DNA of 59,990 nt from a virus. Taxonomy: Duplodnaviria; Caudoviricetes. Below the pieces are notes generated by a model. That model did not search any database. It had not been told where the DNA came from and saw nothing but the letters and a program-made list of their open reading frames with translations. Position 1 is the stretch's first letter. Each line of letters starts with the position of its first letter. A program made the translations under genes and the position numbers. This document shows positions 3,016 to 28,500 of the stretch, piece after piece. The stretch lies in IMG/VR virus record IMGVR_UViG_3300022689_000080, positions 1-59,990 of that record; one strand, 5' to 3'.

Positions 3016-3757
3016 CATGGGTCTACTGGGCGCCGTCGCAGGTGGCGCAAAGGGCTTCGGCGGTTTCATCAGCGCGGAGCTTCAGGCCGAGCGCGAGCGC
3101 GCGATGGAGGCGCTGCGCCAGGACAACCGGCTCGCTATGGAAGAAGTTCGGACCACGAACAGACGCGAGACGAACCGCCTGAACAACGAGCAGCAGAACG
3201 ATTTCCGACTTGGGCAGTTGGCTCAGTCCGACGAGTATGCGCGCGACCGAATCGAAATGGAGCGCCCGTCGATGCAGGACGAGACGCTGACCTTTGAGGA
3301 GGATGGCCAGCCGTCGCTCACAATGTACGGTCAGCGCAACACCAAGACGAACGAGTTCACGCCGTACCGCCGCCCGGACGAGTCCAAGGAATCGGCTTAC
3401 GGCGGCGGTCCCGCCGAAGCGCAGCTCGTCGAGTATTACCGGCAGGAGCATGGGATGTCGCCGGAGGATGCCCGCGAGTTCGTCAAGACGAGCGCGAAGG
3501 ACGGCGCGTCCGAGACGTACAACCGGATGCTTGCCGATATGCTCAAGGACACGGCGGATCCCGTTCGGGCCACCCAGCTCGTGAACGACGCCTTCCGCAG
3601 TACGGAGTGGGGCGCCTACTGGGGCGACTTCAACTACAGCGACGTGCTGCGCTTCAAGGCGGCGAACCCCGGCGTTCCGGATGAACAGATTCGCGCCTTC
3701 ATGGAAGATCAGGTCGCCAAGGGGAGGCGCGTAACTGGTGCAGCGCCGCAGCCGTAG
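3008..3757 (+). CDS. Putative ejection protein
   Basis: 249 aa; N-terminal GLLGAVAGGAKGFGG followed by charged coiled coil. Confidence 0.6.
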   Translation: MPSMGLLGAVAGGAKGFGGFISAELQAERERAMEALRQDNRLAMEEVRTTNRRETNRLNNEQQNDFRLGQLAQSDEYARDRIEMERPSMQDETLTFEEDGQPSLTMYGQRNTKTNEFTPYRRPDESKESAYGGGPAEAQLVEYYRQEHGMSPEDAREFVKTSAKDGASETYNRMLADMLKDTADPVRATQLVNDAFRSTEWGAYWGDFNYSDVLRFKAANPGVPDEQIRAFMEDQVAKGRRVTGAAPQP

Positions 3758-3759
3758 GC

Positions 3760-9700: not shown

Positions 9701-10026
9701 AACGCAAGATCGCGGGCAGGGTGGGCGATCGCATGGCGGCGATGGGCGCCACGGTGTCCGGCCTCGAGCTGAACGCCGCCAACCAGCTACAGGAGTGGGA
9801 CTTCGAGAGCGACACGGATGCCGGCGGCACCGAGGACGTGAATCGACCGACCCGCCGGCAGGCAGAGCAGGAGGAGGCGCCCGCGCCCCCGGAGCCCGTG
9901 ACCGAGGAATACGAGGACGAAGATGGCGTCCTGTACGAGGTCACGGTCGATATGATGAAGCAGGCCGAAAGGCTGGAAGCGCGACTGGGCGTCCTCGACG
10001 AGCTGATTAGGTGCCTGACGCGATGA
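3760..10026 (+). CDS. Large polyvalent internal protein with C-terminal SF2 (Strawberry-notch/DarB-like) helicase
   Basis: 2088 aa; Walker A AGSGKT (~8374), DEAH (8602-8613), SSATP, GGTGLS, QVSGRLAR; N-terminal NPF motifs and Gly/Ala hydrophobic helices. Confidence 0.85.
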   Translation: MGSANPFEGLKNPFDNDGPQASSASAFADGPNDLGDGIISQGIEGSVPGPGNQVKLDPPSAGPDPFLDFVNPFDSPSAVQAREGPAPEPEIDDRSQFRKGFASGIDKMQGMGGATAMLLGDALGLDGMRDWGMETYQSNMAEAQANAGRVQRIEDISSWGDFGDWLAFTSGETIPDLALGIAGGGVGAFAGKRLAQKKIRDHFEKRLRDKIPVEQIIKETDDIARRAMIRGGAVGGAATTLPMTVGEIGGEIFDETGEIRPGVAASFGAVNAALEQLPIFSALRKFLPPGAEDAVRKSIFRRAVEGGLETAAGEAVTEGLQTIVEKAAVKWVDENKDIFTPENWSEIRNAAAAGAVGGGQVGVITGAISSPTESMARDDVQRRADAYQTALEQEAEAARQRVLDEGGDALTAEIAVQQVYIEGEKFRPQPQNLPTDAEYLNPDAPEGQVLYNPFQQGQVDPTSYSIEGTPVTPAPETFDSVEYTPEEYLPIELEDAPVEPVPTQDFSLIDLKSRAIEDLIEEQSYRDIGLDAADPEPIPYASDDPNPRPAREIFDNAERDAIQADIDRLSAETPKVKLGNDATPSVDHDLLQNIALLGGLSREEAEAQGIDPAEFGRLGAGIRRVFTKNGRSFDDMAESLGELGFFDTRERTPNELLAMLDNALVGGREVSPRSSVQAEYDSTVAQIEQLEGELARLERYRGEDTEEPIPPQDLYDPDDAELRDLSYAYLKGELAGLSDDVLADIINTAVDIRSAIQLIEEEIQLEREVLDNLARQGSPQRGGDQAPSQPQTDAGVDGGEEAGPRQPESQPDLLGGRERTTEELERERRAREEAQRPPVDAGFGPLFDGSLNQLDIADVATQEAPAETAVDTEQPPPAPGLTPSPGLESDGGFTLEQQDATENPGDQPLDLLQGYEPPEDRAAERERIRAKLDGMSQIQLAALLENSNAYRDGLAADQMKDRILALADVAAEMGQYESVNQWSEATPILGRATRNHQALARIWDPRRSRSFSPLSAREKIAANVQTVNGYLPLETEQEKTERETKNAEAVAQGDLERRELEALKQIVEDYMTPERGREIRDWWDGAEPDDRVKLLRLVGATDDEARKMWKRPWVGGDGKLGVSEKFKRAVHDQAVTFWDRFKADPAGFYEGRTLPTDLMMATTLQDYRAISDAVERGVMVPELGMDESFVGEHPAKKLPGYKAAQELYHDDRGRFRGLAPVALSLRLGVPESDAKVLRDYFLNFYERAGMRARPGGEEGPNGVWYEGGQLMALTEEGGGSDGTFVDPKNPDAAAQTGGGLENRPQANREDAIITFGKYRDRNVFDVADEDPDYVRWMISSGAIDKPGLAPFKDELDQKLNAEARAKAEERKKKQAERIKEIDVDAILRAAGLKVKQDGDTWLVSGNTYPVRKLMNELGGRFDYDEKAYRFTDDPRGPIAAELGDEDGTGVDLGQIDPEADEMVKEAREKLRPKLNATPNEALTPKEYRALVGSETKDLIERGRRFGIPDSVVQEQIEDIGMITRASLDGKPVFVLANQAGSGKTFVLGGAMREIGEQQDRRFVYVTMNKNLIAQIEKDLADYGIGDRVEFFTYSALSNKKSAKPVLDENTVLIFDEAHNIKNIGGPSESTRAVIASQMMRDASMTIVSSATPYENPVEMAYLEPTGIFEEAGGHMKFALAYGASLQKVQTGRRADQVDLVAYWPGGRSRVALAAEARDWLDRKGLFTQRIKKLPDGMVESNFRSVEISKEWVERFDTITGAYDEAFNRTGSMILGALKMNTQKRILEAAKLDDGIRMARKAVEDGKQAVIFTETKSERGFTFGISPMEMEQANRIAFAQDEPAPYPSWKVELQREFEDRGLTDYTLPSTVDEIVKAFGRDSTAVYVGAAQFETVNVTDKTAKDDLAAFKAGKLDVMVATMAKGGTGLSIHPTKKNNPRAQIGINLPWKATGVDQVSGRLARYGMQSPVDIDWVFASNIELERKIAGRVGDRMAAMGATVSGLELNAANQLQEWDFESDTDAGGTEDVNRPTRRQAEQEEAPAPPEPVTEEYEDEDGVLYEVTVDMMKQAERLEARLGVLDELIRCLTR

Positions 10027-17557: not shown

Positions 17558-17953
17558 ATGGTCACTTCGCTACAGGCCACGGGAACCCCTGGAGGGATCC
17601 GCAGCTTTGCGCCGAAGTCCGAGTCGGCAACGGGGCGCGACGGAACCCAGTTCACCGAGCTGACCTCGTGGGCGATCCCCGGCCCTGCTCGCCTGTTCGA
17701 GGCGAAGTCCGGATCGACAACAGAGCGCGACGGAACCCAGTTCACCGAGCTGGCCTCCTGGGCAACTCCCGGCCTCATTCGTGTATTCGAGGCAAAGACG
17801 CCGGCCGAAATCCTGCCGCCAGTAGTCGACGTTCCCCTGGGCGGCGGTGGCAGCAAGAAGAAGGCCGAGTATGACCGCCATCTGGAAAGGCTCATGCGTG
17901 AGGACGAGGAGATCGTCGCAATCATCATGGCCGCTGTGAGGGTGCTTCAATGA
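17558..17953 (+). CDS. Hypothetical protein with 30-aa repeats
   Basis: 28-bp exact direct repeat at 17635-17662 and 17725-17752; ends EDEEIVAIIMAA. Confidence 0.7.
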   Translation: MVTSLQATGTPGGIRSFAPKSESATGRDGTQFTELTSWAIPGPARLFEAKSGSTTERDGTQFTELASWATPGLIRVFEAKTPAEILPPVVDVPLGGGGSKKKAEYDRHLERLMREDEEIVAIIMAAVRVLQ

Positions 17954-20900
17954 GCAAGCTGTCCAACTGCATGAGCAAGGCCGGGAAGGCTCTCGACGCC
18001 GAGGACAAGAAGCGGATCCTCGAGCGGCGATCCGAGCTGGTTGGCGACGGCGCGAAGCAGGACGACGCTGCGCTTCAGGCCGTGGCCGATCGCATCTTTG
18101 AGCTGAAGCAGGAATTCCGCGAGCTTCGGGACCAGGGCATCGTCAACGCCATGCCGATCCTGCCGAACTACAACGCCGCGCGCGGCAACCGGATGGTGTC
18201 CACGCCCATCACCGCCACGGAGCCAGAGCCGAAGTTCGAGGGCGCTGACCGCGAGAAGGACGACACGCCCCTGCTGTCGGTTCAGGACTTCAACGAGATC
18301 ACGAACATGGTCGAGGACTGGCTGTTTCCCGAGCCGAAGAAGGGGGAGACGCGATCCCTCGAGACGAAGGCGGAGCTGGGCGCCCCGGAAATGAAGGACT
18401 CCGACTACGTGGGCCCGGGCACCGCGAAGTTCACGACGCCATCGCAGTCGCGCCGCATCCGCGATTCGTGGGAGAAGGCCGTGGAAGCCATGCCGAAAGA
18501 GCATCCGGCGCGCGGGAGTGTGGGCACGAAAACGGTCCTGAGCCTCTTCGATGCGACTGGCGAGTGGTCGGATCCGTGGGCGCAGGCCGGTTACAACGTG
18601 ATCTCCGTCGACCTGAAGAACGGCGACGACATCATGGATTTCGGCGTCCAGTACCTCAACGATATGTACGGCGAGTGGCTGAACGACGTGTACGCCGTGA
18701 TCGCGGCCTGCCCCTGCACGGACTTCTCCAACGCCGGAAACAAGCACAAGGCCGGCAAGCGGGAGAGCGGCGCCATCCAGCAAAGCCGCGAGCTGGTCTA
18801 CCAGACCTTGGCGACCATCGAGTACCTGCGCCCCGTGATATGGGCCATCGAGAACCCTGTGGGCCAGATCAAGAGCGAGACGGGCCTGCCGTCGCCGCGC
18901 CTGACTTTCCACCCCTATCACTTCGGTGATGCCTACACGAAAAAGACCCAGCTCTACGGCAACTTCAACCCGTTCTCCATGCCCACGGCGAGCGTCGAGC
19001 CCAAGCTGGGGTCGCTGATGCACAAGCTGGGCGGCAAGGACGAGTCTGACGCCGGCCTGCGCTCCATCACGCCGCGCGGCTTTGCGCTGTCCTTCTTCCT
19101 GGGCAACAACATGATGACCATGCCCGCGGAGGAGTACCTGAAGCGCCGGTACTTCAACGTGTGGCCGGACATCCAGCGCCTGATGAAGATCGGTGCGAGC
19201 GAGCGCGAGATCATCGCTTTCGTGGATGGCCAGTGGGACTACGAGGGCTCCGAGGCGAAGGAAGCGATTCAGGACATCCTGAACGACACGGACTCGCTGG
19301 GCGCGCTGCGGTCGGCGGTGGACTTCCTGGGCAGGGACAAGACCGCCCAGTTCAGCGTTCCGTCATGGGCCGATCAAAAGGTCGATGACATCCGGCGCAG
19401 AACGCCCGAGGAGCTGTCCGCACTGCCGACGCGGGAGCTGAACGCGGAAAACCGTGTCGCCGGCATGGACGCCTATCAGAGCTACCTCCTGTATAGATTC
19501 CCGACCCGAACCTTCCTCGACCGCCTCGACAAGGTGGAAAAGAGGGTAGGCGATAAGCAGGCGCAGGCCATACGTGCGGCGGACGTGGAGCGCGACAAGC
19601 GAGCCCTCTATTCGCTGTTCCAGCAGGCCGGCGTGTTCCCCACCAAGACGCGGTTGGTGCCCTTCCTGAAAGGCTTGGATCAACTGGACAAGGACCGGCC
19701 GTTCCAGTCTTACCTCTACACCCCCGAGGCCTACATCGACGCAATCGAAAACCCGATTGATTACAGCCATGACCGCGACGGCATCAGCCCGTACTTCAAG
19801 CCGGAAACGATCAAGAGGTACTTCCTCGATCTGGCGAAAAGCCTCTCGAGTACGCAGCAGGCGAAGCATCTGACCCTGGATGGCTACAAGAAGAACATCG
19901 GGATCGTCTACGACACGTTCATGGCCCTCCACGACGAGGAGGCGATCCGCTACTACTGGAACACCCAGGGGATCCTGAATGAGCGTCCCTTCGAGGAGCG
20001 CATGGCCGTCGACAGGGAGGAGCCGCCTGCCCCGCCATCCACGGACGACGGCGATCAGGAAGGCCTGTTCCGTCGCAGCGGCGCGACGCGCACCGGAAGG
20101 ACCGACGCGCAACTGATCCGGGGTCTGAAGAAGGCGCCCACGGTCAAGGTCATCGACACGATCAAGGGCCTGCCGAAGCGGATTCAGGACCAGCTCGCGG
20201 CCGAGGGCACGACGGAGATCAAGGGCTACTACGACCGCGGCGAGGGCGCGGTGTACCTCGTGCGCTCCGGCAACCGCGACGCCGACGATATGGACGCGAC
20301 GCTGCTTCACGAGGCGGTCGGCCACTACGGCATCGAGCTTCTGTTCGGAGAGGACATCGGCAAGTTCCTGGCGATGGTCTACGGCGCCCGGATGCGGGAT
20401 CCGGCCGTGAAGCGCGCGTTCGAGTACGTCGAGCGCTACTACCGCGGGGCCCCGAAGGCGGTGCAGGTGGCCGAGGCGGTGGCCTACCTTGCGGAGACGG
20501 ATCCGAAGAACGGGCTCCTGACGCGCATCGTGCAGTTCGTGAAGGGGATCCTGCGCAAGCTGGGCTTCCAGACGGAGTTCACGGCCGCGGACATCTACGA
20601 GGCCTTTGCCCTGGCGAAGCGCGCGATGGATGGCGAGATCCAGCCGATGCCGTGGTACATCCGCTCGTTTCAGGAGCGCCAGAATCTGGCCGCTGCCGAG
20701 GGCGCCGCGAGCATCGACTACATACTGGATCGCAACGAGGTCGGCCTGTACTCGCAGCTCGAGAAGGCGTTGAACGAGATGCCGGACTTCAAGCCCACGA
20801 AGAAGAACCCCGAGGGCAAGATCAAGGCGAGCCTGATCCTGAGCCGCCTGCAAAAGGCCGGCGTGAAGAAGGAGGAGCTGGAGTGGTCTACCTTCGCCGC

Positions 20901-23900
20901 GCGCCTACAGTCGAACCCCGACGAGCTGTGGACCCAGGAGGCCGCACTGGAGGCCGCGGAAGAGGGCAGGCTGGAGCTGATCCGCGACGAGCTGGAATCG
21001 GGTACAGGCGATTCTCCGGAGGGCGAGATCTGGCAGACGCCGCAGATCTACGACGAGCGCGACGCTTACGAATATCGCATAGATGACCTCATGGATGGCT
21101 GGGACAACGACAGCATTGAATACGAGCTGATCGAGTTCCTTGAAACGCTTCAGCCCGATGTTCTCGAGGAGGCGATGAAAGACTACCTCGAGGCCAACCG
21201 TGACTCGCTTTCGGAGTCAGAGATTTCGGAAATCGAAGAGAGCATGGATGGCGGAGAAGAGCAGTGGATCTCCGAAAACTTCGGCAAGATGAAAAACTTC
21301 CAGAAGCAGATGCGCAGCGAGTTCGAGGAATGGGCCGAGGGCTACGTGCGCGAGGAGTATTTTGCTGGGGATCCTTACACCTACACCCACATGAATTCCG
21401 AGTACGGGGATTACATCATCTTCGGAAGCGACGACCTGGGATATGACCTTCGCAAGGGCGGGCTTGAATGGAGCAGGCGCGTTGAGATCCCGGAGAACTA
21501 CCTTTCCGAGAACCGAATCTATTCAATCTCAGAAGCCAAAATCGCGTTCGAGAACTACCTTCGAGAGCAGGGCGACCTGAATGATGGCGATGCCGCAGGC
21601 GGCACGATCTTTATGGATTACCTCAATCAGGGTCTGCCGGCTTACGAGGACTACTGGGAAACCCTGATCCGTGTCGGCCCTCACGAGAAGATCGTGGGCG
21701 AGTATATGAAGGGCGGTCATTTTGATCGGGACGGCCAGGAGAATGTCGTGGTGTTCTCGCGCAACACGAAGCGCGAGATCGACGGCGTTTCAACGTACTA
21801 CATCGACGAACTGCAATCCGACTGGCACAGCGACGCCCGAAAAAGGGGTGGCTACAGCACCAGGGAGTTTATCGAGCGCAGGAAAAAAAGGCAGGACGAG
21901 ATTCGAGATCGCAGCCAGGAGGTATTTAGTCAGATCTACCGCCCCATAAAGGAGGTAGCGGAATACCTTATTGAGGGCAACCCTGAATACGTGGAGCGCG
22001 GTAAGCAGTCGTTGACTCAGGATCTTATTGGCACGGTAACGGGCACTCGACCTTCTGCGAACTCTGAAGCAAGAGCTGCACTAGGGACTCGCGCCGAGAG
22101 CAAATGGGAATATGCGACCGACGCCGAAAAAGAAGAGGCGGAGTTTTTTCAAGAGCTTCTGGAATCCAGGATCCCGGGCATAGCAGAACTTCAGGTCGAA
22201 AATCATGCGCTTGAAGCCGAGAAGGACAGTCTGTACGTCAACAATTTCCCTCCCGACGCTCCATTTAAGGACAGCGCCTACATCAACCTCGCGGTGAAAG
22301 ACGCGCTGGTGACGGCCGTGAATCGCGGCTACCGGCGCATCGCGTGGAACGATTCGCAGGCCGTTGCTGGCGTGTGGGGCGACAGGTACTTGGCCGGTTA
22401 CAAGGTGGTCTACGACAAAAAGATGGTCGGGGCCATAAAGAAGCTCACGGGGCTCACGCCGTATCGGCTCGATCTCGACGGCGACACCATCACCGCCGAG
22501 GATGTCGAGACTGCCGGCGGCGAGCTGAATATGCCGGGGATGTGGGTCATCGACATTCCTGAGTCCGTCGCGGAGCAGATCAAGGTCGAGGCCTTCCCGA
22601 TGTTCCGCATCGACGATCAGGCCCAGCCGGATATGTTTTCGGACCCGATTGGCGAGGAGCTGCAAGGCGCCGCGGCGAAGCTGTCACCGACCGAGATCGA
22701 CGAGTGGCGCATGGCCAACCGCGTGTCCCAGCGGGCCGGCCGAAACCGCGACGTGGAGGCCGCTGCGCGCCGCCTCGAGTCCGGCGATCTGACCCTGGAT
22801 GGCTACAACCAGATCGTGCAGAAGCACATGCCGATCTTCGAGCTGCGGCAGGTGCCGCCGTCGCCCACGGTGGGGGATATGTCCGCGGCGCTGTCCCAGG
22901 ACAAGGCGGAGCGGATCATCGGCGTCGACGTGAAGATTGCGGACGGGGAGCGCGTGGCCTCGCGCCTCGACATCCCGGCCTTCGACTTCTACAACACGTG
23001 GATCGTGTCGGTGCACCGCGGTGGCAGCAACACGGGTAGCTCCATCGGCTACGGCACCCATTCGGTCCTGACCAATGTGGAGTTCAAGACCAACCCGAAA
23101 GCGGCCCTGAAGGTCGCCACGGGGCGCAGCTCGAAGGCGCCGTTCGCCCGGGTGCACGGCGACTGGCAGAACATGGATCTCGAGAGCGCCCGCCGGCTGG
23201 CGGCGTCGGCCCTGAAGGATCCCGCCTGGGTGCAGGTGGGGCAGAACCCATTCCGGCACAGCTACTTCTACGAGAAGCGGACGGGCCAGCCAGTGGTCGC
23301 GGCCGAGAAGATCGTCCAGATCGGGCCCTTCGTCATGGCGCGCGGCGTCACCTACGCGAGCCCCCTCGAGGAGCAGTTCCGGGTCCGCGACACGGACGTG
23401 TTCTTCCGCCGCGTCGACGAGACGGACGACGAGCGCCGCAACGCCCGCCTGAAGGGCGAGGATCGGTCCTACCTCGATCGCGGCAAAGCGCTGTGGCATC
23501 GGGCCCTGTCCCCCGGCGGCAACCTGCCGGAAAAGGTGTTCGATGCGAAGATCCGGCGCGATGGCCAGATCGAGGCCGGCGAGCTGGATACGCGGCATCA
23601 GGTCTACGATCTCGAGCACGCTTTCAAAAAGGCGTTCGGCAAGAGCTTCGAGAAGCGCACCATAGAGCAGGAGCGCCAGATGCGTCGCGCCCTGGCTGGC
23701 GAGGCGAACGTGGATCTACCACGGGAAGTGCTGGATGTCCTCGGCGCCATGCGGGCGCACATCGACTCGCTCTCGGAGCAGTACATCGAGGCCCTGAAGT
23801 CTGACGGCCAGTACCTGCTGCAACAGCTCCCGCCGGAGCGCCGTGACGCTCTCATGCAGACGCTCATGGAGATGGGCGACGAGATCGACTTCGACGAGTT

Positions 23901-26307
23901 CAGCGGCCCGGAGGCCCGGATCGTGGCGAAGCTGCTGCTGATCCGCACGATCTCGGGCAACGTCGGCCGGTACGTGCATCGGTCCTATCAGGCCTACGAC
24001 GATCCAAAATGGTTCGACAGAATCCCGGCCCCGGTGATGAACAACGCGCGCCGCTACCTGAAGGAGAACTACATCGAGCAGGAAACCGCGCGCCGTGAGA
24101 AGCGCCGGAAGCGGGAAGTGAACAAGCTGGCCAAGCAGCTCCGGGCCGAGGACGAGAGCCTGACCCTGAAGGGCGCGAAAGCGATTGCGGACTCGCTGGT
24201 GGATCCCATCGAGGAGGTCACGGAAGCGGAAGCGCTCGAGCGCGCCGATATTGCGATCGAGGACATCGCCAAGAGCGGCACGGCCTACGATTCGATGGAG
24301 AGCTACTTCAAGGAGTCGAAGCTGGGCGCGAAGGATCTGTCGATCCTCAAGCGCCGCAAGGTCATCGGTGATCCGATTCTGGCCCTGCTGGGCGAATACT
24401 ATGACCCGCGCCTCAACTACGCGAAGTCCGTGGCGAAGATGAACCGCCTGATCCACAACGACCTGCTGCTGAAGGACATCCGCGAGGTCGGCATGGGCGT
24501 GTTCCTCTTCGAGGAGAAGGACCGGCCGGTGGGCGCCTGGAAGCAGCTTTCCTCGAAGGGGAACGAGCGCTACTCGCCCCTGGATGGCCTCTACACGACC
24601 CCGGAGGTCGCGCAGGCGTTTCAGGACGCCCTGGGCCACCCCGAGGACTGGGGCCGGATCGTGGAGGGCGTCATCCGCCTCAACGGCCTCGTGAAGTTCG
24701 GCAAGACGGTCCTCTCGCCAACCACGACGGTGCGCAACTGGGTGTCGGCCGCGTTCTTCACCCTGTCCAACGCGCACTTCAACTGGAAGCACATCGGCCG
24801 CTCCGTGAAGTCGATGAAAACCTACTTCGAGAAGGATGACAGCCAGCGGGAGTACCTGCGCAAGCTGAAGGAGCTGGGCGTGGTCTATGACACGCCGTAT
24901 GCCGGTGAAATGATGCGCCTTCTCGATGATGCGCAGATCGAGAATTTCCTGAACGGCGGGAAGATGACGGCGCGGCACTGGCTCCAATTCGCGCAGCGCT
25001 TGTACCAGTTCGGGGACGACTTCTGGAAGATCGTCGGCTGGGAGAACGAGATCCAGCTTCAGATGAAGTATTACGGGCTCGACCGGGAGGCCGCGGAGAA
25101 GGAGGCGGCGAAGCGGGTCCGCAACACCTATCCCACGTACTCGATGGTCGGCCAGTTCATGCAGCGCCTGCGGAAGTTCCCGCTGGCCGGTACGTTCGTG
25201 TCATTCCCTTCGGAGATCATCCGCACGAGCTATCACATCGTCCGCTACGCCTACCGCGATATGAAGCAGTCGAAGGCCCTGGGCGCCCAGCGACTGGCGG
25301 GGCTGGCGATCGCGTCCGGCGCGGCCTACATCATTCAGGAGCTGTCGAAGCAGGCCCTGGGCGTCGATGACGAAGAGGAGGAGGCAATCCGCCAGCAACT
25401 GCCGCCGTGGAGCCGGAACAGCAATCTTTGGTTCTGGTCGCGCGAGGACGGCCTGCTGCGCTACATGGATCTGAGCTACCACGATCCCTACAACTACTGG
25501 AAGCGGCCGATCACGGCGATGATGCGTGACGAGCCCCCGGGCAACCGCCTGCTGTCCGCGGCGACGGATATGGTCAAGCCGTTCTTCGGCACCGACATCG
25601 TGGCTGGCGCGGTCATGGAAGTCCTCACGAACCGGAAGAGTAGCGGCGGGCCCGTCTACAACGAGTCGGAGCATCCCGTTCAGATTGCGAAGGACTCCGC
25701 CGATCACATCCTGAAAGCGGTGTCGCCCGGGTTCGTGAACAACATCAACCGGACGGCGAAGGCGCTCCAGGGCGAGTACAGGGCTTCCGGGCAGCAATAC
25801 TCGGTGGCCGACGAGGGGCTGGCGTGGCTGGGCGTCCGGGTAAGCACCCTGGACCCTGCGGCCTCACTGAAGTTCCGGGCCTTCGATCAGACGCGCGACC
25901 TGCGCAGCACGTCCGCCATCGTGTCGAGCAAGATCCGCGACCCGAACCCAGTCTCGGACGAGGCGCTGCGCACGGCGTTCGACCGGATGATGTACCAGCG
26001 GGAGCAGATCTTCGATGACGCCCTGAAGATGGTGAAGGCGGCGAGGAAGAGCGGCATCACCAGCACCGCGGACATCCAGCGGATCCTGGCCAGCGGCGGC
26101 TACTCGAAGGATGACGCGCGGCTGCTGGCCAACGGGCGGATTCCGGGGATGCGAAGGACGCCGCGGTGGATGGACGCCGCGATCAAGTCGAACGAGAGGG
26201 TGTTCGGGCGCGATGCCGGCCGGGAGACGCGGCGGCGCCGGGATCTCGTGCGGCGCTGGATGGCCGAATACTCTAGCCAGCGTTCTAACCAGCCTGCCGC
26301 CGCTTGA
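17950..26307 (+). CDS. Large polyvalent internal protein: C5-cytosine methyltransferase, zincin-like domain, unknown domains, LPD38-like C-terminus
   Basis: 2785 aa; LSLFDATG, AACPCTDFS, IENP, YTKKTQLYG (18530-19110); LLHEAVGHYG (~20308); IDELQSDWH (~21802); C-terminal LPPWSRNSNLWF. Confidence 0.85.
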   Translation: MSKLSNCMSKAGKALDAEDKKRILERRSELVGDGAKQDDAALQAVADRIFELKQEFRELRDQGIVNAMPILPNYNAARGNRMVSTPITATEPEPKFEGADREKDDTPLLSVQDFNEITNMVEDWLFPEPKKGETRSLETKAELGAPEMKDSDYVGPGTAKFTTPSQSRRIRDSWEKAVEAMPKEHPARGSVGTKTVLSLFDATGEWSDPWAQAGYNVISVDLKNGDDIMDFGVQYLNDMYGEWLNDVYAVIAACPCTDFSNAGNKHKAGKRESGAIQQSRELVYQTLATIEYLRPVIWAIENPVGQIKSETGLPSPRLTFHPYHFGDAYTKKTQLYGNFNPFSMPTASVEPKLGSLMHKLGGKDESDAGLRSITPRGFALSFFLGNNMMTMPAEEYLKRRYFNVWPDIQRLMKIGASEREIIAFVDGQWDYEGSEAKEAIQDILNDTDSLGALRSAVDFLGRDKTAQFSVPSWADQKVDDIRRRTPEELSALPTRELNAENRVAGMDAYQSYLLYRFPTRTFLDRLDKVEKRVGDKQAQAIRAADVERDKRALYSLFQQAGVFPTKTRLVPFLKGLDQLDKDRPFQSYLYTPEAYIDAIENPIDYSHDRDGISPYFKPETIKRYFLDLAKSLSSTQQAKHLTLDGYKKNIGIVYDTFMALHDEEAIRYYWNTQGILNERPFEERMAVDREEPPAPPSTDDGDQEGLFRRSGATRTGRTDAQLIRGLKKAPTVKVIDTIKGLPKRIQDQLAAEGTTEIKGYYDRGEGAVYLVRSGNRDADDMDATLLHEAVGHYGIELLFGEDIGKFLAMVYGARMRDPAVKRAFEYVERYYRGAPKAVQVAEAVAYLAETDPKNGLLTRIVQFVKGILRKLGFQTEFTAADIYEAFALAKRAMDGEIQPMPWYIRSFQERQNLAAAEGAASIDYILDRNEVGLYSQLEKALNEMPDFKPTKKNPEGKIKASLILSRLQKAGVKKEELEWSTFAARLQSNPDELWTQEAALEAAEEGRLELIRDELESGTGDSPEGEIWQTPQIYDERDAYEYRIDDLMDGWDNDSIEYELIEFLETLQPDVLEEAMKDYLEANRDSLSESEISEIEESMDGGEEQWISENFGKMKNFQKQMRSEFEEWAEGYVREEYFAGDPYTYTHMNSEYGDYIIFGSDDLGYDLRKGGLEWSRRVEIPENYLSENRIYSISEAKIAFENYLREQGDLNDGDAAGGTIFMDYLNQGLPAYEDYWETLIRVGPHEKIVGEYMKGGHFDRDGQENVVVFSRNTKREIDGVSTYYIDELQSDWHSDARKRGGYSTREFIERRKKRQDEIRDRSQEVFSQIYRPIKEVAEYLIEGNPEYVERGKQSLTQDLIGTVTGTRPSANSEARAALGTRAESKWEYATDAEKEEAEFFQELLESRIPGIAELQVENHALEAEKDSLYVNNFPPDAPFKDSAYINLAVKDALVTAVNRGYRRIAWNDSQAVAGVWGDRYLAGYKVVYDKKMVGAIKKLTGLTPYRLDLDGDTITAEDVETAGGELNMPGMWVIDIPESVAEQIKVEAFPMFRIDDQAQPDMFSDPIGEELQGAAAKLSPTEIDEWRMANRVSQRAGRNRDVEAAARRLESGDLTLDGYNQIVQKHMPIFELRQVPPSPTVGDMSAALSQDKAERIIGVDVKIADGERVASRLDIPAFDFYNTWIVSVHRGGSNTGSSIGYGTHSVLTNVEFKTNPKAALKVATGRSSKAPFARVHGDWQNMDLESARRLAASALKDPAWVQVGQNPFRHSYFYEKRTGQPVVAAEKIVQIGPFVMARGVTYASPLEEQFRVRDTDVFFRRVDETDDERRNARLKGEDRSYLDRGKALWHRALSPGGNLPEKVFDAKIRRDGQIEAGELDTRHQVYDLEHAFKKAFGKSFEKRTIEQERQMRRALAGEANVDLPREVLDVLGAMRAHIDSLSEQYIEALKSDGQYLLQQLPPERRDALMQTLMEMGDEIDFDEFSGPEARIVAKLLLIRTISGNVGRYVHRSYQAYDDPKWFDRIPAPVMNNARRYLKENYIEQETARREKRRKREVNKLAKQLRAEDESLTLKGAKAIADSLVDPIEEVTEAEALERADIAIEDIAKSGTAYDSMESYFKESKLGAKDLSILKRRKVIGDPILALLGEYYDPRLNYAKSVAKMNRLIHNDLLLKDIREVGMGVFLFEEKDRPVGAWKQLSSKGNERYSPLDGLYTTPEVAQAFQDALGHPEDWGRIVEGVIRLNGLVKFGKTVLSPTTTVRNWVSAAFFTLSNAHFNWKHIGRSVKSMKTYFEKDDSQREYLRKLKELGVVYDTPYAGEMMRLLDDAQIENFLNGGKMTARHWLQFAQRLYQFGDDFWKIVGWENEIQLQMKYYGLDREAAEKEAAKRVRNTYPTYSMVGQFMQRLRKFPLAGTFVSFPSEIIRTSYHIVRYAYRDMKQSKALGAQRLAGLAIASGAAYIIQELSKQALGVDDEEEEAIRQQLPPWSRNSNLWFWSREDGLLRYMDLSYHDPYNYWKRPITAMMRDEPPGNRLLSAATDMVKPFFGTDIVAGAVMEVLTNRKSSGGPVYNESEHPVQIAKDSADHILKAVSPGFVNNINRTAKALQGEYRASGQQYSVADEGLAWLGVRVSTLDPAASLKFRAFDQTRDLRSTSAIVSSKIRDPNPVSDEALRTAFDRMMYQREQIFDDALKMVKAARKSGITSTADIQRILASGGYSKDDARLLANGRIPGMRRTPRWMDAAIKSNERVFGRDAGRETRRRRDLVRRWMAEYSSQRSNQPAAA

Positions 26308-26334
26308 GGTATCCCAGCGAACCCCAGTGCGCCG

Positions 26335-26436
26335 CAAGTCATTGATTTGCGGCGACACTGGGCGACATCGAAAGACGGGCGGCGGGTTCGAGTCCCGTCC
26401 GCTCCGCCATATTTGTTGTGCAAAATCAATGACTTA
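26335..26436. other. attP: tRNA-Asp 3' fragment flanked by two inverted IHF sites
   Basis: WATCAANNNNTTR matches at 26335-26347 (minus) and 26424-26436 (plus); lies downstream of integrase. Confidence 0.88.
26382..26409 (+). pseudogene. 3' 28 nt of tRNA-Asp (T-arm, acceptor strand, CCA); att core
   Basis: GCGGGTTCGAGTCCCGTCCGCTCCGCCA matches the 3' end of gammaproteobacterial tRNA-Asp(GTC) as I recall it; no D or anticodon arm upstream. Confidence 0.85.
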
Positions 26437-26465
26437 GATCTGGGGCGCGAAAATTTGCCAACGAT

Positions 26466-26999
26466 CTACCCACCCTTTGCTCGGTTGAGCAGGTATTGTT
26501 CCGCCACCAGCCTGAACACTTCCTCGCCCCACTCATTCATAGCGATATTGACCGCGACACAGACCAGGCGCACGTTCTCGGGATCATAGCCAACTTTGCT
26601 GTCGATCCTGTCGATGCTCGGCGCGAATGGGCGCCTAAGCCACCCATCAGGGCGATGTAACCCGAAGGAGATGCCCGTGACTGCGCAGCGCCCGCCAGAA
26701 GCCTCGACGAGAGCCTGTTCGTCCTGCTTGGAAAGCCCATACCGCTTTCGCTTCCGCGCAGTGCGAAACATTTCAGCGTAGTACCGATCAATATCCTGAT
26801 CGTCTGTCGCTGTCGACCCGGGGTGAACAGCGCCGGAGTCAATCGCCTTTGAGAGGATCTGGCGAGCGCTGGCGGCATCGCTGATGTGGCCCTCCGAAAG
26901 ATCTCCTGGGATAGTGTGGTAGTAGGTTCTTCCTTTCCTTTGGATGCGAATCTGTATTCCTCGGCCGCTGACCCGCAGTCCTGATGGCAAGCTGTTCAT
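26466..26999 (-). CDS. Integrase-type arm DNA-binding domain fused to HNH-like endonuclease domain
   Basis: N-terminus 23/34 identical to N-terminus of adjacent integrase; C-terminal RCAVTG...PSIDRIDSKVGYDPENVRLVCVAVN; GGGAGG RBS. Confidence 0.85.
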   Translation of the reverse strand: MNSLPSGLRVSGRGIQIRIQRKGRTYYHTIPGDLSEGHISDAASARQILSKAIDSGAVHPGSTATDDQDIDRYYAEMFRTARKRKRYGLSKQDEQALVEASGGRCAVTGISFGLHRPDGWLRRPFAPSIDRIDSKVGYDPENVRLVCVAVNIAMNEWGEEVFRLVAEQYLLNRAKGG

Positions 27000-27010
27000 T
27001 TTTTCCTCCC

Positions 27011-28045
27011 TCAGATGGCCAGCTCGAAGCGCTTCCGGTCCTGGCTGGCCGAATACTCCTCAATGAACTCCGAGTAGGTGCGCAGGAACATTTCCGTGCT
27101 GTGGCCGAGGTACTTGGCCGCGTCGGCCGGCTGGATGCCGGCGGAGAGGAGCTGCGCCGCCTTCGTGTGGCGGAGCGTGTAGGGGATCCGGTACGGGATC
27201 CGCGCGCGGCGGTGAGCCTTCCGCCATGCCTCGTTGAACACGTCCGTGTCCAGGTGGGGCCCGCCCTTCGTGTTCTGGAATATGTGCCCGCCCTCGAAGC
27301 GGGTGACGTGTCCGTTCAGGGCCGATCGCGCCTGCTGGGGCACGTAGACCGTCCGGCGCTCGTAGGTCTTGGTCGTGGGCTCGAGGCGCCGCCGGACGAT
27401 CTGCTTCGTGATCGATAGCTCCGCGCCGCTGTAGTCGGTCCAGAGTAGCCCCAGGGCCTCGCCCGGGCGCAGGCCGGTGTGGATCAGGAGCGTGAAGTAG
27501 ACCAGCGACTGGCCGCTCAGGTGGCGCTGGATGGCCTTCCATTCATCCGGCGTGTACCGCTGCACAGGGGCCCTCTGGCGGCGCTGGAAGCGTAGCCCCA
27601 CCGCAGGGTTGGGGGTGACGCCGTAGAGCGTGAAGATGCCAGCCAGGGGCCCGAGGGCGTTCCGCTTCGTCTTGGGTGACACGTCCCACTGGGCGACCGT
27701 CTCGCGGACGGTTCGGGCGTCGATGGATAGCAGTGGCATGCGGCCGAAGGCCGGGATCCAGCGCGTGTTCAGGATGTTCTCGTAGGACAGGTGGGTGGAG
27801 CGCTTGGCCTCCAGCATATCGAGGTAGTGCTGGGCGGCTTCGATGAAGGGCGGATTCTCCGCCGCTGCGGTGAGATCGCCACCCAGCTCGAGGATGGCGA
27901 TCATCTGCTTCCTGCGCTTTACCGCCTGGGCGAAGTGACTCGCTGAGAGGTTGCCCGGGATCGTCTCGTAATAGGTTCGACCGCCGTGCTGGACTCGGAT
28001 CTGGAGCCCTCGGCCGCTGGGCCTGATTCCTTTCGGGTTATCCAT
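27011..28045 (-). CDS. int: Tyrosine integrase with N-terminal arm-binding (DUF3596-like) domain
   Basis: TGLRPGE, YTLRHT, LGHS...Y catalytic motifs; next to attP. Confidence 0.96.
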   Translation of the reverse strand: MDNPKGIRPSGRGLQIRVQHGGRTYYETIPGNLSASHFAQAVKRRKQMIAILELGGDLTAAAENPPFIEAAQHYLDMLEAKRSTHLSYENILNTRWIPAFGRMPLLSIDARTVRETVAQWDVSPKTKRNALGPLAGIFTLYGVTPNPAVGLRFQRRQRAPVQRYTPDEWKAIQRHLSGQSLVYFTLLIHTGLRPGEALGLLWTDYSGAELSITKQIVRRRLEPTTKTYERRTVYVPQQARSALNGHVTRFEGGHIFQNTKGGPHLDTDVFNEAWRKAHRRARIPYRIPYTLRHTKAAQLLSAGIQPADAAKYLGHSTEMFLRTYSEFIEEYSASQDRKRFELAI

Positions 28046-28245
28046 GCGCTGACCGCCTCCCGATCAATCAACGTCGTGCGGCCGATTACATAGTAGTGGA
28101 GGCCCCGGGTCCAGTGCCGCCGCATCCAGCCGTCGATGGTGGTTTCGGGCAGGCCTAGCTCCTGGGCGTACTTGGCTTTGCTCACGAGGCGAGGCCAGGA
28201 TCCGGTCATGCTCGCGGACTCATCAACAATGGTCATGCTGCTCAC
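27919..28245 (-). CDS. xis: Excisionase-like winged-helix protein
   Basis: LVSKAKYAQELGLPETTIDGWMRRHWTRGLHYYVIGRTTLIDREAVSAW; overlaps int start; GGAG RBS before GTG 28245. Confidence 0.75.
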   Translation of the reverse strand: MSSMTIVDESASMTGSWPRLVSKAKYAQELGLPETTIDGWMRRHWTRGLHYYVIGRTTLIDREAVSAWITRKESGPAAEGSRSESSTAVEPITRRSRATSQRVTSPRR

Positions 28246-28263
28246 GGTTACTGCTCCATCAAG

Positions 28264-28500
28264 GCGCCGGTCTTTCCCGGCTGTCCGCGCACTCAGGGAA
28301 GCGATCAGGGGAATATCCGCTCTCGCGCCGCGGAGGCGTTTCACCCGGACCCACCCGGGCTTAATTGCGAGAGCCTTCCCGCCTGACCGGGAGTCGGAAG
28401 CTAACCGTCCCCGTGCGCTGCCGGCGTTATTTGCGCCACCACCGGCTGGGCTGATTCTCTGGATGGATTGGGAGCGCCATTCCCGCCTCCGCTGGATGCG
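28264..28500 (-). ncRNA. Candidate structured RNA upstream of xis/int
   Basis: ~240 bp gap with several hairpins and a 9-bp long-range inverted repeat (28330-28338/28484-28492). Confidence 0.4.

What the first reader, a model, noticed from the sequence alone, without database searches (positions are those of the whole stretch)
26466..28045. Integrase arm-binding domain duplicated and fused to an HNH-like nuclease, between int and attP
Seen: the 177-aa gene 11 bp after int begins PSGLRVSGRGIQIRIQRKGRTYYHTIPGDLSEGH, 23/34 identical by hand to the integrase's own N-terminus PKGIRPSGRGLQIRVQHGGRTYYETIPGNLSASH. It then continues into RCAVTG...PSIDRIDSKVGYDPENVRLVCVAVN, a beta-beta-alpha-Me (HNH-like) pattern, and ends ~30 bp from attP. 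Known: the N-terminal domain of lambda-type tyrosine integrases reads att arm sites. Inference: an att-targeted nuclease or binder that could (a) cut attP or prophage junctions of rival phages using the same tRNA-Asp site, (b) home the int-attP cassette into relatives, or (c) act as a directionality factor competing with Int for arm sites. I know of no described system with this architecture. Caveat: the DRID variant lacks the canonical catalytic His.
Basis: partly seen in the sequence, partly recalled or inferred. Interest (0 to 1): 0.88.

Follow-up and report, generated by a model that had tools for sequence, protein, structure and literature searches.

The report
Integrase-arm-guided nuclease gene beside attP
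A phage gene wedged between the integrase gene and the attachment site joins a copy of the integrase's own DNA-reading domain to a PacI-type DNA-cutting domain, and the same undescribed design recurs in many other phages, pointing to a mobile nuclease aimed at integration sites.

Summary
ORF 26466-26999(-) (177 aa) starts 11 nt after int (27011-28045). Its first ~56 residues are 50% identical to Int's N-terminus (E 4e-15). Its stop lies 52 bp from a tRNA-Asp 3'-end-like attP core.

The C-terminal half is a His-Me finger most like the restriction enzyme PacI, the subgroup in which a tyrosine replaces the catalytic histidine. The PacI-equivalent Asp, Tyr and Asn are conserved across the family. 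T4 Srd carries the same domain.

The design is recurrent:
- 32 of 82 dereplicated relatives lie directly downstream of a tyrosine integrase, often 27-62 bp from a tRNA gene.
- 21 of those 32 carry an integrase-arm-like domain.
- In 13 of the 20 whose arm region matches their own integrase, that integrase is the best match among 47.
- There are nine unrelated arm types, one of them C-terminal.

The gene is optional. Near-identical integrases (92-98%) have or lack it, and nuclease and integrase identities are uncorrelated.

Best reading (0.4): an arm-site-directed dimeric nuclease cassette behaving like a free-standing homing endonuclease. Rivals are a recombination accessory, a nuclease that excludes rival phages, or an inert arm-site competitor. 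No biochemistry exists, and I found no prior description.

The parts
26466..26999 (-). 177-aa gene: integrase-arm-like domain fused to a PacI/Srd-like His-Me finger domain
   Evidence: ORF. Two-domain AF2 model, mean pLDDT 81.9. Homologs.
26832..26987 (-). Arm-like domain (residues 5-56), three strands plus a helix
   Evidence: 26/52 identical to Int residues 4-55, E 4e-15. The domain model has pLDDT 83 with strands 8-11, 14-21, 24-31 and helix 36-55. Only weak, non-significant AP2 and HPI-integrase-arm fold matches.
26481..26792 (-). PacI/Srd-like His-Me finger domain (residues 70-173) with D130, R131, Y138, N142, N151
   Evidence: PHROG endonuclease families 3e-17 to 3e-12. Profile against PDB: PacI E 4.1e-5. 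Foldseek top hit PacI, prob 0.94, E 0.047. Residue conservation. T4 Srd hhalign 90.6%. Homodimer model ipSAE 0.74 against best control 0.01.
27000..27010 (-). 11-nt spacer with GGGAGG Shine-Dalgarno between the int stop and the start of the gene
   Evidence: Sequence. In relatives, 26 of 32 int-to-gene gaps are 50 nt or less.
27011..28045 (-). Tyrosine integrase
   Evidence: Pfam Phage_integrase 3.7e-13. SAM-like and Arm-DNA-bind_3 match below cut-off. PHROG integrase 1.8e-41.
27881..28036 (-). Integrase N-terminal arm-type domain (residues 4-55), source or paralog of the fused domain
   Evidence: Alignment A3 shows the 177-aa protein is closer to its own Int (46%) than to six related Ints (27-40%).
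27919..28344 (-). Xis-like helix-turn-helix ORF upstream of int. As called, it overlaps the int start by 127 nt.
   Evidence: PHROG excisionase families 2.1e-6 and 2.1e-3. Pfam HTH_17 is below cut-off.
26377..26413 (+). tRNA-Asp 3'-end-like fragment, the presumed attP core
   Evidence: 92% over 37 nt to annotated E. coli tRNA-Asp genes. T-arm/acceptor-like alignment. The same fragment lies next to int in 8 related loci.
26336..26348 (.). Left copy of a perfect 13-nt inverted repeat flanking the core, embedded in a 25-nt palindrome. IHF-site-like by a consensus I recall.
   Evidence: zero-mismatch copies only at these two places in the window. Like sites at matching positions in relatives.
26423..26435 (.). 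Right copy of the 13-nt inverted repeat, 30 bp from the gene's stop
26251..26273 (+). Direct repeat D1, left copy: candidate arm-type site (unproven)
   Evidence: 23 nt, 87% identical to the right copy. The 18-nt core occurs only twice in the 60 kb window, with 0.16 expected.
27036..27058 (+). Direct repeat D1, right copy, inside the 3' end of int: candidate arm-type site (unproven)
   Evidence: In the cassette-less relatives L102/L103, arm-like repeats lie in the int 3' end.

Best explanation
The gene is an optional, horizontally exchanged cassette that sits between int and the att core.

Shown:
- It encodes two domains. One is a copy of the cognate integrase's N-terminal arm-type domain. The other is a PacI-type His-Me finger, in which Tyr replaces the catalytic His and the metal ligands are Asp and Asn.
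- It is translationally coupled to int.
- The same layout recurs with many unrelated arm types.

Inferred:
- The protein dimerises through the nuclease domain.
- The borrowed arm domain delivers it to the arm-type sites of its own kind of attP, and it cuts DNA next to them.

Most likely it behaves like a free-standing homing endonuclease. In mixed infections it would cut the int-att junction of sibling phages that carry the same arm sites but lack the cassette, and be copied in during repair. Its own genome would be spared because the cassette occupies or displaces the cut site. Arm sites cannot mutate away without loss of integration, which makes them a good target.
For: Nuclease domain:
- Profile match to PacI, E 4.1e-5, and Foldseek top hit PacI, followed by Cas9-HNH, Cap5, Gme HNH and ColE7.
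- PacI uses Tyr as general base, and Asp and Asn hold the metal (passages read in PMC5714182, and PMC4081073).
- The equivalents D130, Y138 and N151 are invariant in 82 dereplicated relatives (N151 in 81 of 82).
- They are nearly invariant in an index-free search: Asp 230, Tyr 238 and Asn 243 of 248 domain copies.

Dimer:
- ipSAE 0.74 against best control 0.01. The mark was reached by 20 of 30 solved homo-pairs and 1 of 23 single chains. The runs agree in at least 97% of contacts, and pLDDT is at least 88.
- 88 of the best 150 relatives have 2 or more tandem domain copies.

Targeting:
- N-terminus 50% identical to own Int.
- Of 38 int-linked relatives, 23 have an Int-arm-like region and 20 match their own neighbour. 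In 13 of those the neighbour ranks first of 47 integrases, against 0.8 expected by chance.
- The 26 arm-bearing proteins fall into 9 sequence-unrelated arm groups. In L017 the arm copy is C-terminal.

Position:
- 32 of 82 have int immediately upstream on the same strand, and 26 of those 32 gaps are 50 nt or less.
- tRNA genes lie 27-62 bp past the stop in L006, L032/36, L054/55, L088 and L093.

Optional and mobile:
- 8 of the 9 closest relatives of the window's Int lack the gene and have the core within about 20-130 bp of the int stop.
- In the L047 clade, 2 of 24 informative loci with Int at least 90% identical carry it. L112 (98% Int) has a 70-bp empty site.
- L183 carries it and L184 (92% Int) does not. 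Arm-like TGTAGA repeats flank the gene in L183 and are contiguous in L184.
- Nuclease identity and Int identity are uncorrelated: Spearman 0.07, with 92 of 500 permutations as high. L014 and L027 have Int 87% identical but nuclease 38%.
Against: - No cleavage, binding or homing has been observed, and the arm sites of the window are not identified.
- Two of the four cysteines of the PacI zinc site aligned to this region are absent (positions 108 and 150 are T/S and V/A), so the fold may behave differently.
- T4 Srd, a member of the same domain family, is known for activating RNase E, not for cutting DNA (passages in PMC13232886).
- One relative, P0012, has the domain where antitoxins of its type usually carry a DNA-binding domain (the usual layout is my recollection). 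That fits a mere binder.
- The same int-att slot holds unrelated cargo in sibling prophages, so presence/absence may only reflect a cargo hotspot.
- A crude k-mer test did not find shared repeats on both sides of the gene in general: mean longest shared word 8.4 against 7.8 and 8.2 in controls.
- 11 of the 32 int-linked genes show no Int-like domain. Three arm-bearing ones (L013, L025, L052) match other integrases but not their neighbour at E<1e-3. L109 has the gene on the far side of the core, with an arm type unlike its Int.
- Foldseek E-values are not significant on their own.
- Conservation is partly by construction, because the loci were fished with patterns covering residues 124-131 and 142-151. 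Y138 is independent of those patterns.
Confidence: 0.4

Rival explanations
1. Accessory factor of the integrase reaction. The arm domain would tether the protein in the intasome. There the dimeric nuclease would resolve or process stalled recombination intermediates (for example Holliday junctions blocked by overlap heterology), or otherwise tune integration and excision, to the phage's own benefit.
For: - Tight translational coupling to int (26 of 32 gaps are 50 nt or less), so it is made whenever Int is made.
- The arm domain tracks the cognate Int.
- PHROG families named 'endonuclease VII' match at 5e-13, and the nearest named Atlas cluster is Endonuclease_7, though at a score of 0.82, which is only a lead.
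- The dimer prediction fits a junction resolvase.
Against: - It is dispensable. Integrases 92-98% identical work without it, judging from integrated prophages that lack it.
- 8 of the 9 closest relatives of the window's Int lack it.
- The nuclease does not co-diverge with Int.
- The closest solved relative, PacI, is a sequence-specific duplex cutter, not a structure-specific one.
- No Pfam Endonuclease_7 match at E<=1.
Confidence: 0.25
2. Exclusion weapon. The nuclease would cut the attP region of incoming or co-infecting phages that use the same integrase arms, and hence the same attB. It might require both arm clusters in cis, so that the resident attL and attR are spared.
For: - Same architecture and catalytic conservation as above.
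- A dimer with two arm domains could read two arm clusters.
- The int-att slot carries other variable cargo in sibling prophages, as defence islands do (the comparison with defence hotspots is my recollection, not a call).
Against: - It is always co-oriented and coupled with int, rather than under its own promoter like the reverse-oriented alternative cargo. Int is usually silent in lysogens (general knowledge).
- No PADLOC family matches.
- The phage's own attP carries the same sites during infection.
Confidence: 0.2
3. Catalytically inert DNA binder. It would be an arm-site competitor or bridging factor, acting as a directionality or copy-control regulator. The His-Me finger would serve only for dimerisation or for binding another partner, as Srd binds RNase E.
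For: - Loss of two zinc-site cysteines.
- The Srd precedent.
- P0012 has the domain in the place of a DNA-binding domain.
- A strong predicted dimer interface.
Against: - Strict conservation of exactly the PacI catalytic Asp, Tyr and Asn across hundreds of diverged copies is hard to explain without catalysis.
- An Xis-like gene already lies upstream of int.
- The gene is optional.
Confidence: 0.1

Closest known systems
Restriction endonuclease PacI (PDB 3LDY/3M7K; His-Me finger group 20 of Jablonska et al. 2017)
   Same: - Best sequence-profile hit (E 4.1e-5) and best fold hit.
- Shared motif block ..DR.DS..GY...N.RL.C...N, with the PacI residues I count as D92, R93, Y100, N104, R106, C109 and N113 aligned to D130, R131, Y138, N142, R144, C147 and N151.
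- Tyr takes the place of the catalytic His.
- A homodimer is predicted here.
   Different: - Only about 20% identity.
- Two of the four cysteines of the aligned zinc site are missing.
- The DNA-targeting part here is a copy of an integrase arm domain.
- The gene is part of a phage integration module, not a restriction system.
- No activity has been shown.
Phage T4 Srd (NP_049634)
   Same: Srd residues 17-97 align to the nuclease-like domain (hhalign probability 90.6%, E 1.3e-6). PHROG 4592, 'decoy of host sigma70', matches at 6e-4.
   Different: - Srd has Glu for the Asp, lacks the arm domain, and has a long C-terminal part that is absent here.
- Its known role is stimulation of RNase E (PMC13232886, passages read).
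- It is not linked to int or att.
AP2-domain HNH homing endonucleases and other free-standing phage homing endonucleases (I-HmuI group, HNH_3 + AP2/NUMOD)
   Same: - The same design: a His-Me finger nuclease plus a modular DNA-binding domain of the AP2/integrase-arm kind (PMC5714182 group 2 passage).
- Sporadic presence among close relatives.
   Different: - A different His-Me subgroup (Tyr variant).
- The DNA-binding domain is copied from the adjacent integrase and changes with it.
- The location is fixed between int and the att core.
- Homing has not been shown.
N-terminal arm-type DNA-binding domain of lambda-family tyrosine integrases (Pfam Arm-DNA-bind families)
   Same: Direct paralogy with the N-terminus of the neighbouring integrase and a strand-strand-strand-helix topology. 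In relatives, the lambda-type, P4-type and other arm types are all found fused.
   Different: It is detached from the recombinase and joined to a nuclease-like domain. Pfam arm models do not reach threshold: 17.3 bits against a cut-off of 27 for the Int, and nothing for the 177-aa protein.
Excisionases / recombination directionality factors
   Same: A small protein of the integration module, presumably acting on the att arms.
   Different: It has no winged-helix or HTH Xis fold. A separate Xis-like gene exists upstream of int. It is optional among near-identical integrases.

Membership tests
His-Me finger (HNH, beta-beta-alpha-metal) superfamily, PacI-like Tyr-variant subgroup | beta-beta-alpha-metal core fold | tested here: met
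   The AF2 model has strands 127-131 and 143-147 followed by helix 148-157, with pLDDT above 88. The Foldseek top hit is PacI (prob 0.94, E 0.047), followed by other HNH domains. The E-value alone is not significant.
His-Me finger (HNH, beta-beta-alpha-metal) superfamily, PacI-like Tyr-variant subgroup | Significant sequence relation to PacI | tested here: met
   Family profile against all PDB sequences: PacI E 0.0065 with A1 and 4.1e-5 with the domain-only A2.
His-Me finger (HNH, beta-beta-alpha-metal) superfamily, PacI-like Tyr-variant subgroup | Metal-ligand Asp and Asn, and a Tyr in the loop replacing the general-base His | tested here: met
   D130, Y138 and N151 align to the PacI residues I count as D92, Y100 and N113. 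They are invariant in 82 relatives (N151 in 81 of 82), and present in 230, 238 and 243 of 248 copies in the index-free search. Their roles in PacI come from passages in PMC5714182 and PMC4081073. The residue numbers are my own count on the printed alignment.
His-Me finger (HNH, beta-beta-alpha-metal) superfamily, PacI-like Tyr-variant subgroup | Cys4 zinc motifs flanking the active site | tested here: not met
   Only C105 and C147 are kept. The partner positions 108 and 150 are T/S and V/A/I throughout the family.
His-Me finger (HNH, beta-beta-alpha-metal) superfamily, PacI-like Tyr-variant subgroup | Homodimer | tested here: met
   Prediction only: ipSAE 0.74 against best control 0.01. The mark was reached by 20 of 30 solved homo-pairs and 1 of 23 single chains. 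PacI is a solved dimer, so the pass may partly reflect likeness.
His-Me finger (HNH, beta-beta-alpha-metal) superfamily, PacI-like Tyr-variant subgroup | Metal-dependent DNA cleavage | not testable with these tools
   Needs enzyme assays.
Tyrosine-integrase arm-type DNA-binding domain | Homology to the N-terminal domain of a bona fide tyrosine integrase | tested here: met
   26/52 identical, E 4e-15, to the neighbouring Int. The same holds for 20 of 38 int-linked relatives against their own Int.
Tyrosine-integrase arm-type DNA-binding domain | Match to a curated arm-domain model above threshold | tested here: not met
   Int scores 17.3 bits against Arm-DNA-bind_3, below the cut-off of 27. The 177-aa protein has no Pfam hit. 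1 of 51 homologs hits Arm-DNA-bind_1, at 0.0011.
Tyrosine-integrase arm-type DNA-binding domain | Three-stranded sheet packed on a helix, like solved arm/AP2 domains | tested here: inconclusive
   The topology is as expected, at pLDDT 83. The fold matches are weak: HPI integrase arm domain 3jtz has TM 0.49 and E 1.0, AP2 3igm has E 0.45, and nothing reaches E<=0.001. The VIA-align libraries were not available.
Tyrosine-integrase arm-type DNA-binding domain | Binds arm-type repeats of attP | not testable with these tools
   The arm sites of the window are not identified. The candidates are D1 and the sequences next to the core.
Free-standing homing endonuclease | Presence/absence among near-identical flanking genes with sharp boundaries | tested here: met
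   L111 against L112: int is 95% identical at the DNA level, with a 600-bp insert against a 70-bp empty site. L183 against L184. 2 of 24 informative loci with Int at least 90% identical carry it.
Free-standing homing endonuclease | History decoupled from that of the flanking genes | tested here: met
   Spearman 0.07 between nuclease-domain and Int identities over 496 pairs, with 92 of 500 permutations as high. L014 and L027 have Int 87% but nuclease 38%. The window and L042 have nuclease 52% but Int 16%. The nuclease tree itself is poorly resolved.
Free-standing homing endonuclease | Cuts the cassette-less allele near the insertion point and is copied in by repair | not testable with these tools
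   Needs cleavage mapping and phage crosses.
T4 Srd family | Homology over the whole Srd protein, and binding of RNase E | tested here: not met
   Only Srd residues 17-97 align. The remaining roughly 150 residues of Srd have no counterpart in the 177-aa protein. RNase E binding cannot be tested here.
T4 endonuclease VII (Pfam Endonuclease_7) | Match to PF02945 and a CxxC...CxxCN zinc site | tested here: not met
   No Pfam hit at E<=1. The second Cys of each pair is absent. Only PHROG families bearing that name match.
Excisionase / RDF | Xis-type winged-helix or HTH fold | tested here: not met
   No such domain in the model or in Pfam/PHROG. The Xis-like ORF is a different gene, 27919-28344.

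The most novel reading that the evidence does not exclude
A previously unrecognised class of selfish or competitive element specific to integration modules. A PacI-type nuclease repeatedly captures the arm-binding domain of whichever integrase it lands beside. It would then use that integrase's own, mutation-constrained arm sites as its address, to cut and convert (or destroy) the attP of sibling phages. A dimer that needs both arm clusters in cis would tell an intact attP from the split attL and attR of the resident prophage.
Probability: 0.25. Interest if true: 0.9.

Novelty: new variant of a known kind. Interest (0 to 1): 0.78.

Why it matters
Integrase-att modules are textbook systems, and their known accessory proteins are Xis-type factors and host bending proteins. 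A nuclease that borrows the integrase's own arm-reading domain, and does so again and again with unrelated arm types, would add a new player.

- If it homes or excludes, it would explain part of the mosaicism and turnover of integration modules, and give a new form of competition between temperate phages for the same attB.
- If it helps recombination, it would be a new kind of intasome component.
- It also gives a function-guiding context to a very large unnamed domain family (about 52,000 cluster representatives) that includes T4 Srd.
- It offers natural pairs of matched DNA-binding domains (Int and nuclease) for studying arm-site specificity.

Cultured carriers exist, so the tests are feasible: Rhodoblastus acidophilus DSM 137 (L088), and Pseudoxanthomonas suwonensis 11-1 (Psesu_1123).

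Tried and rejected
- Chance or spurious ORF: rejected. There are 198 confirmed relatives in viral contigs and a confident two-domain model.
- Obligatory directionality factor: unlikely, because near-identical integrases lack the gene.
- DNA-level search of INPHARED phages with window 26300-28400: no match.
- tblastn of the protein against the same phages: 33 records. All cover only residues 60 onward, and 0 cover at least 80% of the query.
- Pfam, NCBIfam and PADLOC: no family for the protein.
- Profile of the arm domains against PDB sequences: nothing meaningful.
- Fold search of the arm-domain model: no significant match.
- VIA-align libraries: not on the machine.
- A k-mer test for arm repeats on both sides of the gene across 25 loci: no general signal.
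- Tree of the nuclease domain: 33 of 74 inner branches unsupported, so the number of arm gains cannot be counted on it.
- The 13-nt inverted repeat as arm sites: set aside. It fits the recalled IHF consensus, and like sites sit at the same positions in relatives.
- Literature searches found no description of an integrase-arm/nuclease fusion. One search failed on a too-short term and was not repeated.
- The PacI structure paper (PMC2886031) is not held, so I relied on two reviews. No supplements were consulted.
- RNA or read evidence was not sought.
Full report
**The observation.**
The window is a 59,990-bp IMG/VR virus record, linear, with CheckV completeness 84%. On the minus strand lie, in order:
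- an Xis-like HTH ORF (27919-28344);
- a tyrosine integrase (27011-28045; Pfam Phage_integrase 3.7e-13, PHROG integrase 1.8e-41);
- eleven bases later, behind a GGGAGG ribosome-binding site, a 177-aa ORF (26466-26999).

BLASTP of the two proteins gives 26 of 52 identical residues, E 4e-15, residues 5-56 against 4-55. ARAGORN finds no tRNA gene in the window. However, 26377-26413 is 92% identical over 37 nt to the 3' end of E. coli tRNA-Asp genes. It is flanked by a perfect 13-nt inverted repeat (26336-26348 and 26423-26435). The ORF's stop is 52 bp from the tRNA-like fragment.

**The C-terminal half.**
Pfam, NCBIfam and PADLOC have no family for it. PHROG families named endonuclease, endonuclease VII and HNH endonuclease match residues ~47-169 at 3e-17 to 3e-12, and the 'decoy of host sigma70' (Srd) family matches at 6e-4.

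A profile of 51 homologs finds one solved relative, the restriction enzyme PacI, at E 0.0065. A profile of 75 domain-only sequences gives 4.1e-5. The AlphaFold2 model has mean pLDDT 81.9, above 88 over this domain, with two strands followed by a helix. Foldseek ranks PacI first (prob 0.94, E 0.047), followed by Cas9-HNH, Cap5, Gme HNH and ColE7. These E-values are not significant alone.

According to passages I read in two reviews, PacI lacks the catalytic His. A Tyr in the loop takes its role, and the single metal is held by an Asp and an Asn (PMC5714182; PMC4081073). The primary paper is not held. In the printed alignments, the PacI residues I count as D92, R93, Y100, N104, R106, C109 and N113 fall on D130, R131, Y138, N142, R144, C147 and N151.

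Conservation of these residues:
- They are invariant in 82 dereplicated relatives (N151 in 81 of 82; R144 in 73 of 82, with Q in the other 9, and C147 in 61 of 82). That set was fished with peptide patterns covering 124-131 and 142-151, so only Y138 is free of that bias.
- An index-free HMMER search of 1.84 billion representatives found 52,406 proteins at E<=0.001, 20,882 at <=1e-10 and 715 at <=1e-30.
- In the 248 domain copies of the best 150 of these, Asp is kept in 230, Arg in 229, Tyr in 238, and the two Asn in 246 and 243.

Two of the four cysteines of the aligned PacI zinc site are missing: positions 108 and 150 are T/S and V/A. T4 Srd residues 17-97 belong to the same domain family (hhalign 90.6%, E 1.3e-6).

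The domain is predicted to homodimerise. The ipSAE is 0.74 against a best control of 0.01. The mark was reached by 20 of 30 solved homo-pairs and 1 of 23 single chains. The runs agree in at least 97% of contacts, and pLDDT is at least 88. PacI is a solved dimer, so the pass may partly reflect likeness. In addition, 88 of the best 150 relatives carry two or more tandem copies.

**The N-terminal part.**
A domain-only model has pLDDT 83 and three strands plus a helix, the topology of AP2/integrase-arm domains. The fold matches are weak: HPI integrase arm domain 3jtz has TM 0.49 and E 1.0, AP2 3igm has E 0.45, and nothing reaches E<=0.001. Pfam arm models do not reach threshold. The assignment therefore rests on paralogy with the integrase N-terminus and on that domain's position ahead of the SAM-like and catalytic domains. 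In an alignment with six related integrases, the fused copy is closest to its own Int: 46% against 27-40%.

**The design is recurrent.**
Pattern scans found 198 confirmed relatives in viral contigs (of 214 candidate stretches; the best 80 were kept) and 19 of 25 in genome contigs. With the window, these gave 102 ORFs in 82 clusters at 80% identity.

Position relative to an integrase, of 82:

| Arrangement | Count |
|---|---|
| Tyrosine integrase immediately upstream, same strand | 32 |
| Integrase within 400 bp, other arrangement | 6 |
| Integrase farther away | 5 |
| No integrase within about 5 kb | 39 |

For the 32, 26 of the int-to-gene gaps are 50 nt or less. In integrated copies a tRNA gene lies 27-62 bp past the stop, on the opposite strand: L006 Ser, L032/36 Asn, L054/55 Leu, L088 Arg, L093 His. 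This is the same geometry as in the window.

An integrase-arm-like region is present in 21 of the 32 int-upstream genes (20 N-terminal, 1 C-terminal, in L017). It is present in only 2 of the 39 without an integrase. Of the 38 int-linked genes:
- 23 match some integrase N-terminus at E<1e-3;
- 20 match their own neighbour;
- in 13 of those the neighbour is the best of 47 integrases, against 0.8 expected by chance.

The 26 arm-bearing proteins fall into nine groups with no detectable similarity to each other. These include lambda-like, P4-like and others, and the window's type is a singleton. The other relatives carry HTH domains, tandem nuclease domains, or nothing.

**The gene is optional and mobile.**
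Of the nine closest relatives of the window's Int (48-60% identical), eight lack the gene. In those eight the tRNA-Asp-like core lies within about 20-130 bp of the int stop, between IHF-like sites and obvious arm repeats.

The ninth, L109, is an exception. It has the gene on the far side of the core, with an arm type unrelated to its Int.

In the clade of the L047 integrase (73 loci, prophages next to mutS):
- 24 of the 35 loci with Int at least 90% identical have enough downstream DNA to judge, and 2 of these carry the gene. A third carrier has only 540 bp downstream.
- 2 of 31 informative loci below 90% carry it.
- L112 (Int 98% at the protein level, 95% in DNA) has a 70-bp empty site where L111 has the 600-bp cassette.
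- Other siblings carry 1-2.2 kb of unrelated, reverse-oriented cargo in the same slot.
- An 11-nt word next to the core is kept in both alleles.

In a second clade, L183 has the gene and L184 (Int 92%) does not. TGTAGA-type repeats flank the gene in L183 and are contiguous in L184.

Across the 32 linked pairs, nuclease-domain identity does not follow integrase identity: Spearman 0.07, with 92 of 500 permutations as high. L014 and L027 share 87% in the Int catalytic part but 38% in the nuclease. The window's nuclease is closest (52%) to that of L042, whose Int is 16% identical. The nuclease module therefore moves or turns over independently, while the arm domain matches the local integrase.

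**Mechanism.**
Shown:
- the two-domain architecture;
- the coupling to int;
- the position at the att edge;
- the tracking of the cognate arm type;
- the optional distribution;
- the conserved PacI-type catalytic residues.

Inferred: a dimeric nuclease brought to arm-type sites.

I favour, at 0.4, a free-standing homing-endonuclease life style. The cassette would cut the int-att junction of siblings that lack it and be copied in by repair. Capturing the neighbour's arm domain would give it a target that lies next door and cannot drift.

Rivals:
- an intasome accessory or junction-resolving factor (0.25);
- an exclusion nuclease against phages with the same arms (0.2);
- an inert arm-site competitor (0.1).

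Against my reading:
- There is no biochemistry.
- The arm sites of the window are unidentified.
- Two zinc ligands are lost.
- Srd's known role is RNase E activation.
- The slot is a general cargo hotspot.
- A crude k-mer test found no general pattern of repeats on both sides of the gene.
- 11 of the 32 linked genes have no Int-like domain.
- L013, L025 and L052 match other integrases but not their neighbour.
- The nuclease tree is too poorly resolved to count events.

**Window-specific anatomy left open.**
A 23-nt direct repeat (87% identical) has one copy about 110 bp left of the core (26251-26273) and one inside the int 3' end (27036-27058). Its 18-nt core occurs only at these two places in 60 kb, against 0.16 expected, although the pattern was derived from the data.

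In the cassette-less relatives L102/L103, arm repeats lie at the equivalent left position and in the int 3' end. The repeat may therefore mark the P and P' arms, now separated by the cassette. This is unproven.

**Novelty.**
Six literature searches found no description of an integrase-arm/nuclease fusion or of a nuclease gene fixed between int and att. All database names for the relatives are 'hypothetical protein', 'endonuclease' or Srd-type labels.

The parts are known kinds: the His-Me finger, the AP2/arm domain, and homing-type modularity. The combination, its address and its repeated re-creation appear to be new.

No supplements were seen.

Noticed in passing
window 26336-26348 and 26423-26435: A perfect 13-nt inverted repeat brackets the tRNA-like core. 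Read on the appropriate strand, each copy fits the IHF consensus as I recall it. Similar sites sit at the same positions in related attP regions (L102-L110). The left copy is also part of a 25-nt palindrome just after the stop of the 2785-aa gene.
   Followed up: partly
window 26251-26273 and 27036-27058: A 23-nt direct repeat (87% identical), one copy left of the core and one inside the int 3' end, 785 bp apart, enclosing the core and the 177-aa gene. Its 18-nt core is found nowhere else in the window. It could be arm-type sites or a relic of how the cassette arrived.
   Followed up: partly
window 27919-28344 (-): The Xis-like HTH ORF, as called, runs 127 nt into the integrase gene in another frame. 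Either its tail is a true overlap or there is a frame error.
   Followed up: no
window 17950-26307 (+) and 3760-10026 (+): Two giant genes. The 2785-aa protein ending just left of attP has only a weak, below-threshold Pfam hit (Phage_L5_gp82). The 2088-aa protein has ResIII/AAA_34 and Helicase_C_4 helicase parts and an ExoX-like C-terminal motif.
   Followed up: partly
L109:2400-3100: In one relative of the window's integrase, the nuclease gene lies on the far side of the tRNA-like core, reads away from it, and has a lambda-like arm domain unrelated to the adjacent Int. It may be a tandem or composite element.
   Followed up: partly
L115, L118, L141 (about 3480-5700): The same int-to-att slot next to mutS holds other cargo on the reverse strand in sibling prophages. 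This includes a 276-aa protein with a P-loop-like motif and, in L141, a three-gene block. The slot looks like a hotspot for variable genes.
   Followed up: no
proteins P0002, P0003 and 88 of the best 150 relatives: Many relatives carry two to four tandem copies of the nuclease-like domain in one chain. They look like single-chain versions of a dimer.
   Followed up: partly
protein P0012: One relative joins the nuclease-like domain to an Xre/MbcA/ParS C-terminal toxin-binding (antitoxin) domain, in the place where such antitoxins usually have their DNA-binding domain (the usual layout is my recollection).
   Followed up: no
L090, L091, L093: These genes have a long N-terminal region similar to integrase N-termini, but no integrase within about 5 kb in my scan. 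L093 ends 62 bp from a tRNA-His gene. They may be remnants of decayed integration modules.
   Followed up: no
phage T4 srd (L101:3040-3786): T4 Srd, annotated as an anti-sigma or decoy factor and known as an RNase E activator, has an N-terminal region homologous to this PacI-like domain, with the Tyr and Asn kept and Glu in place of the Asp. I did not find this link stated in the passages I read.
   Followed up: partly
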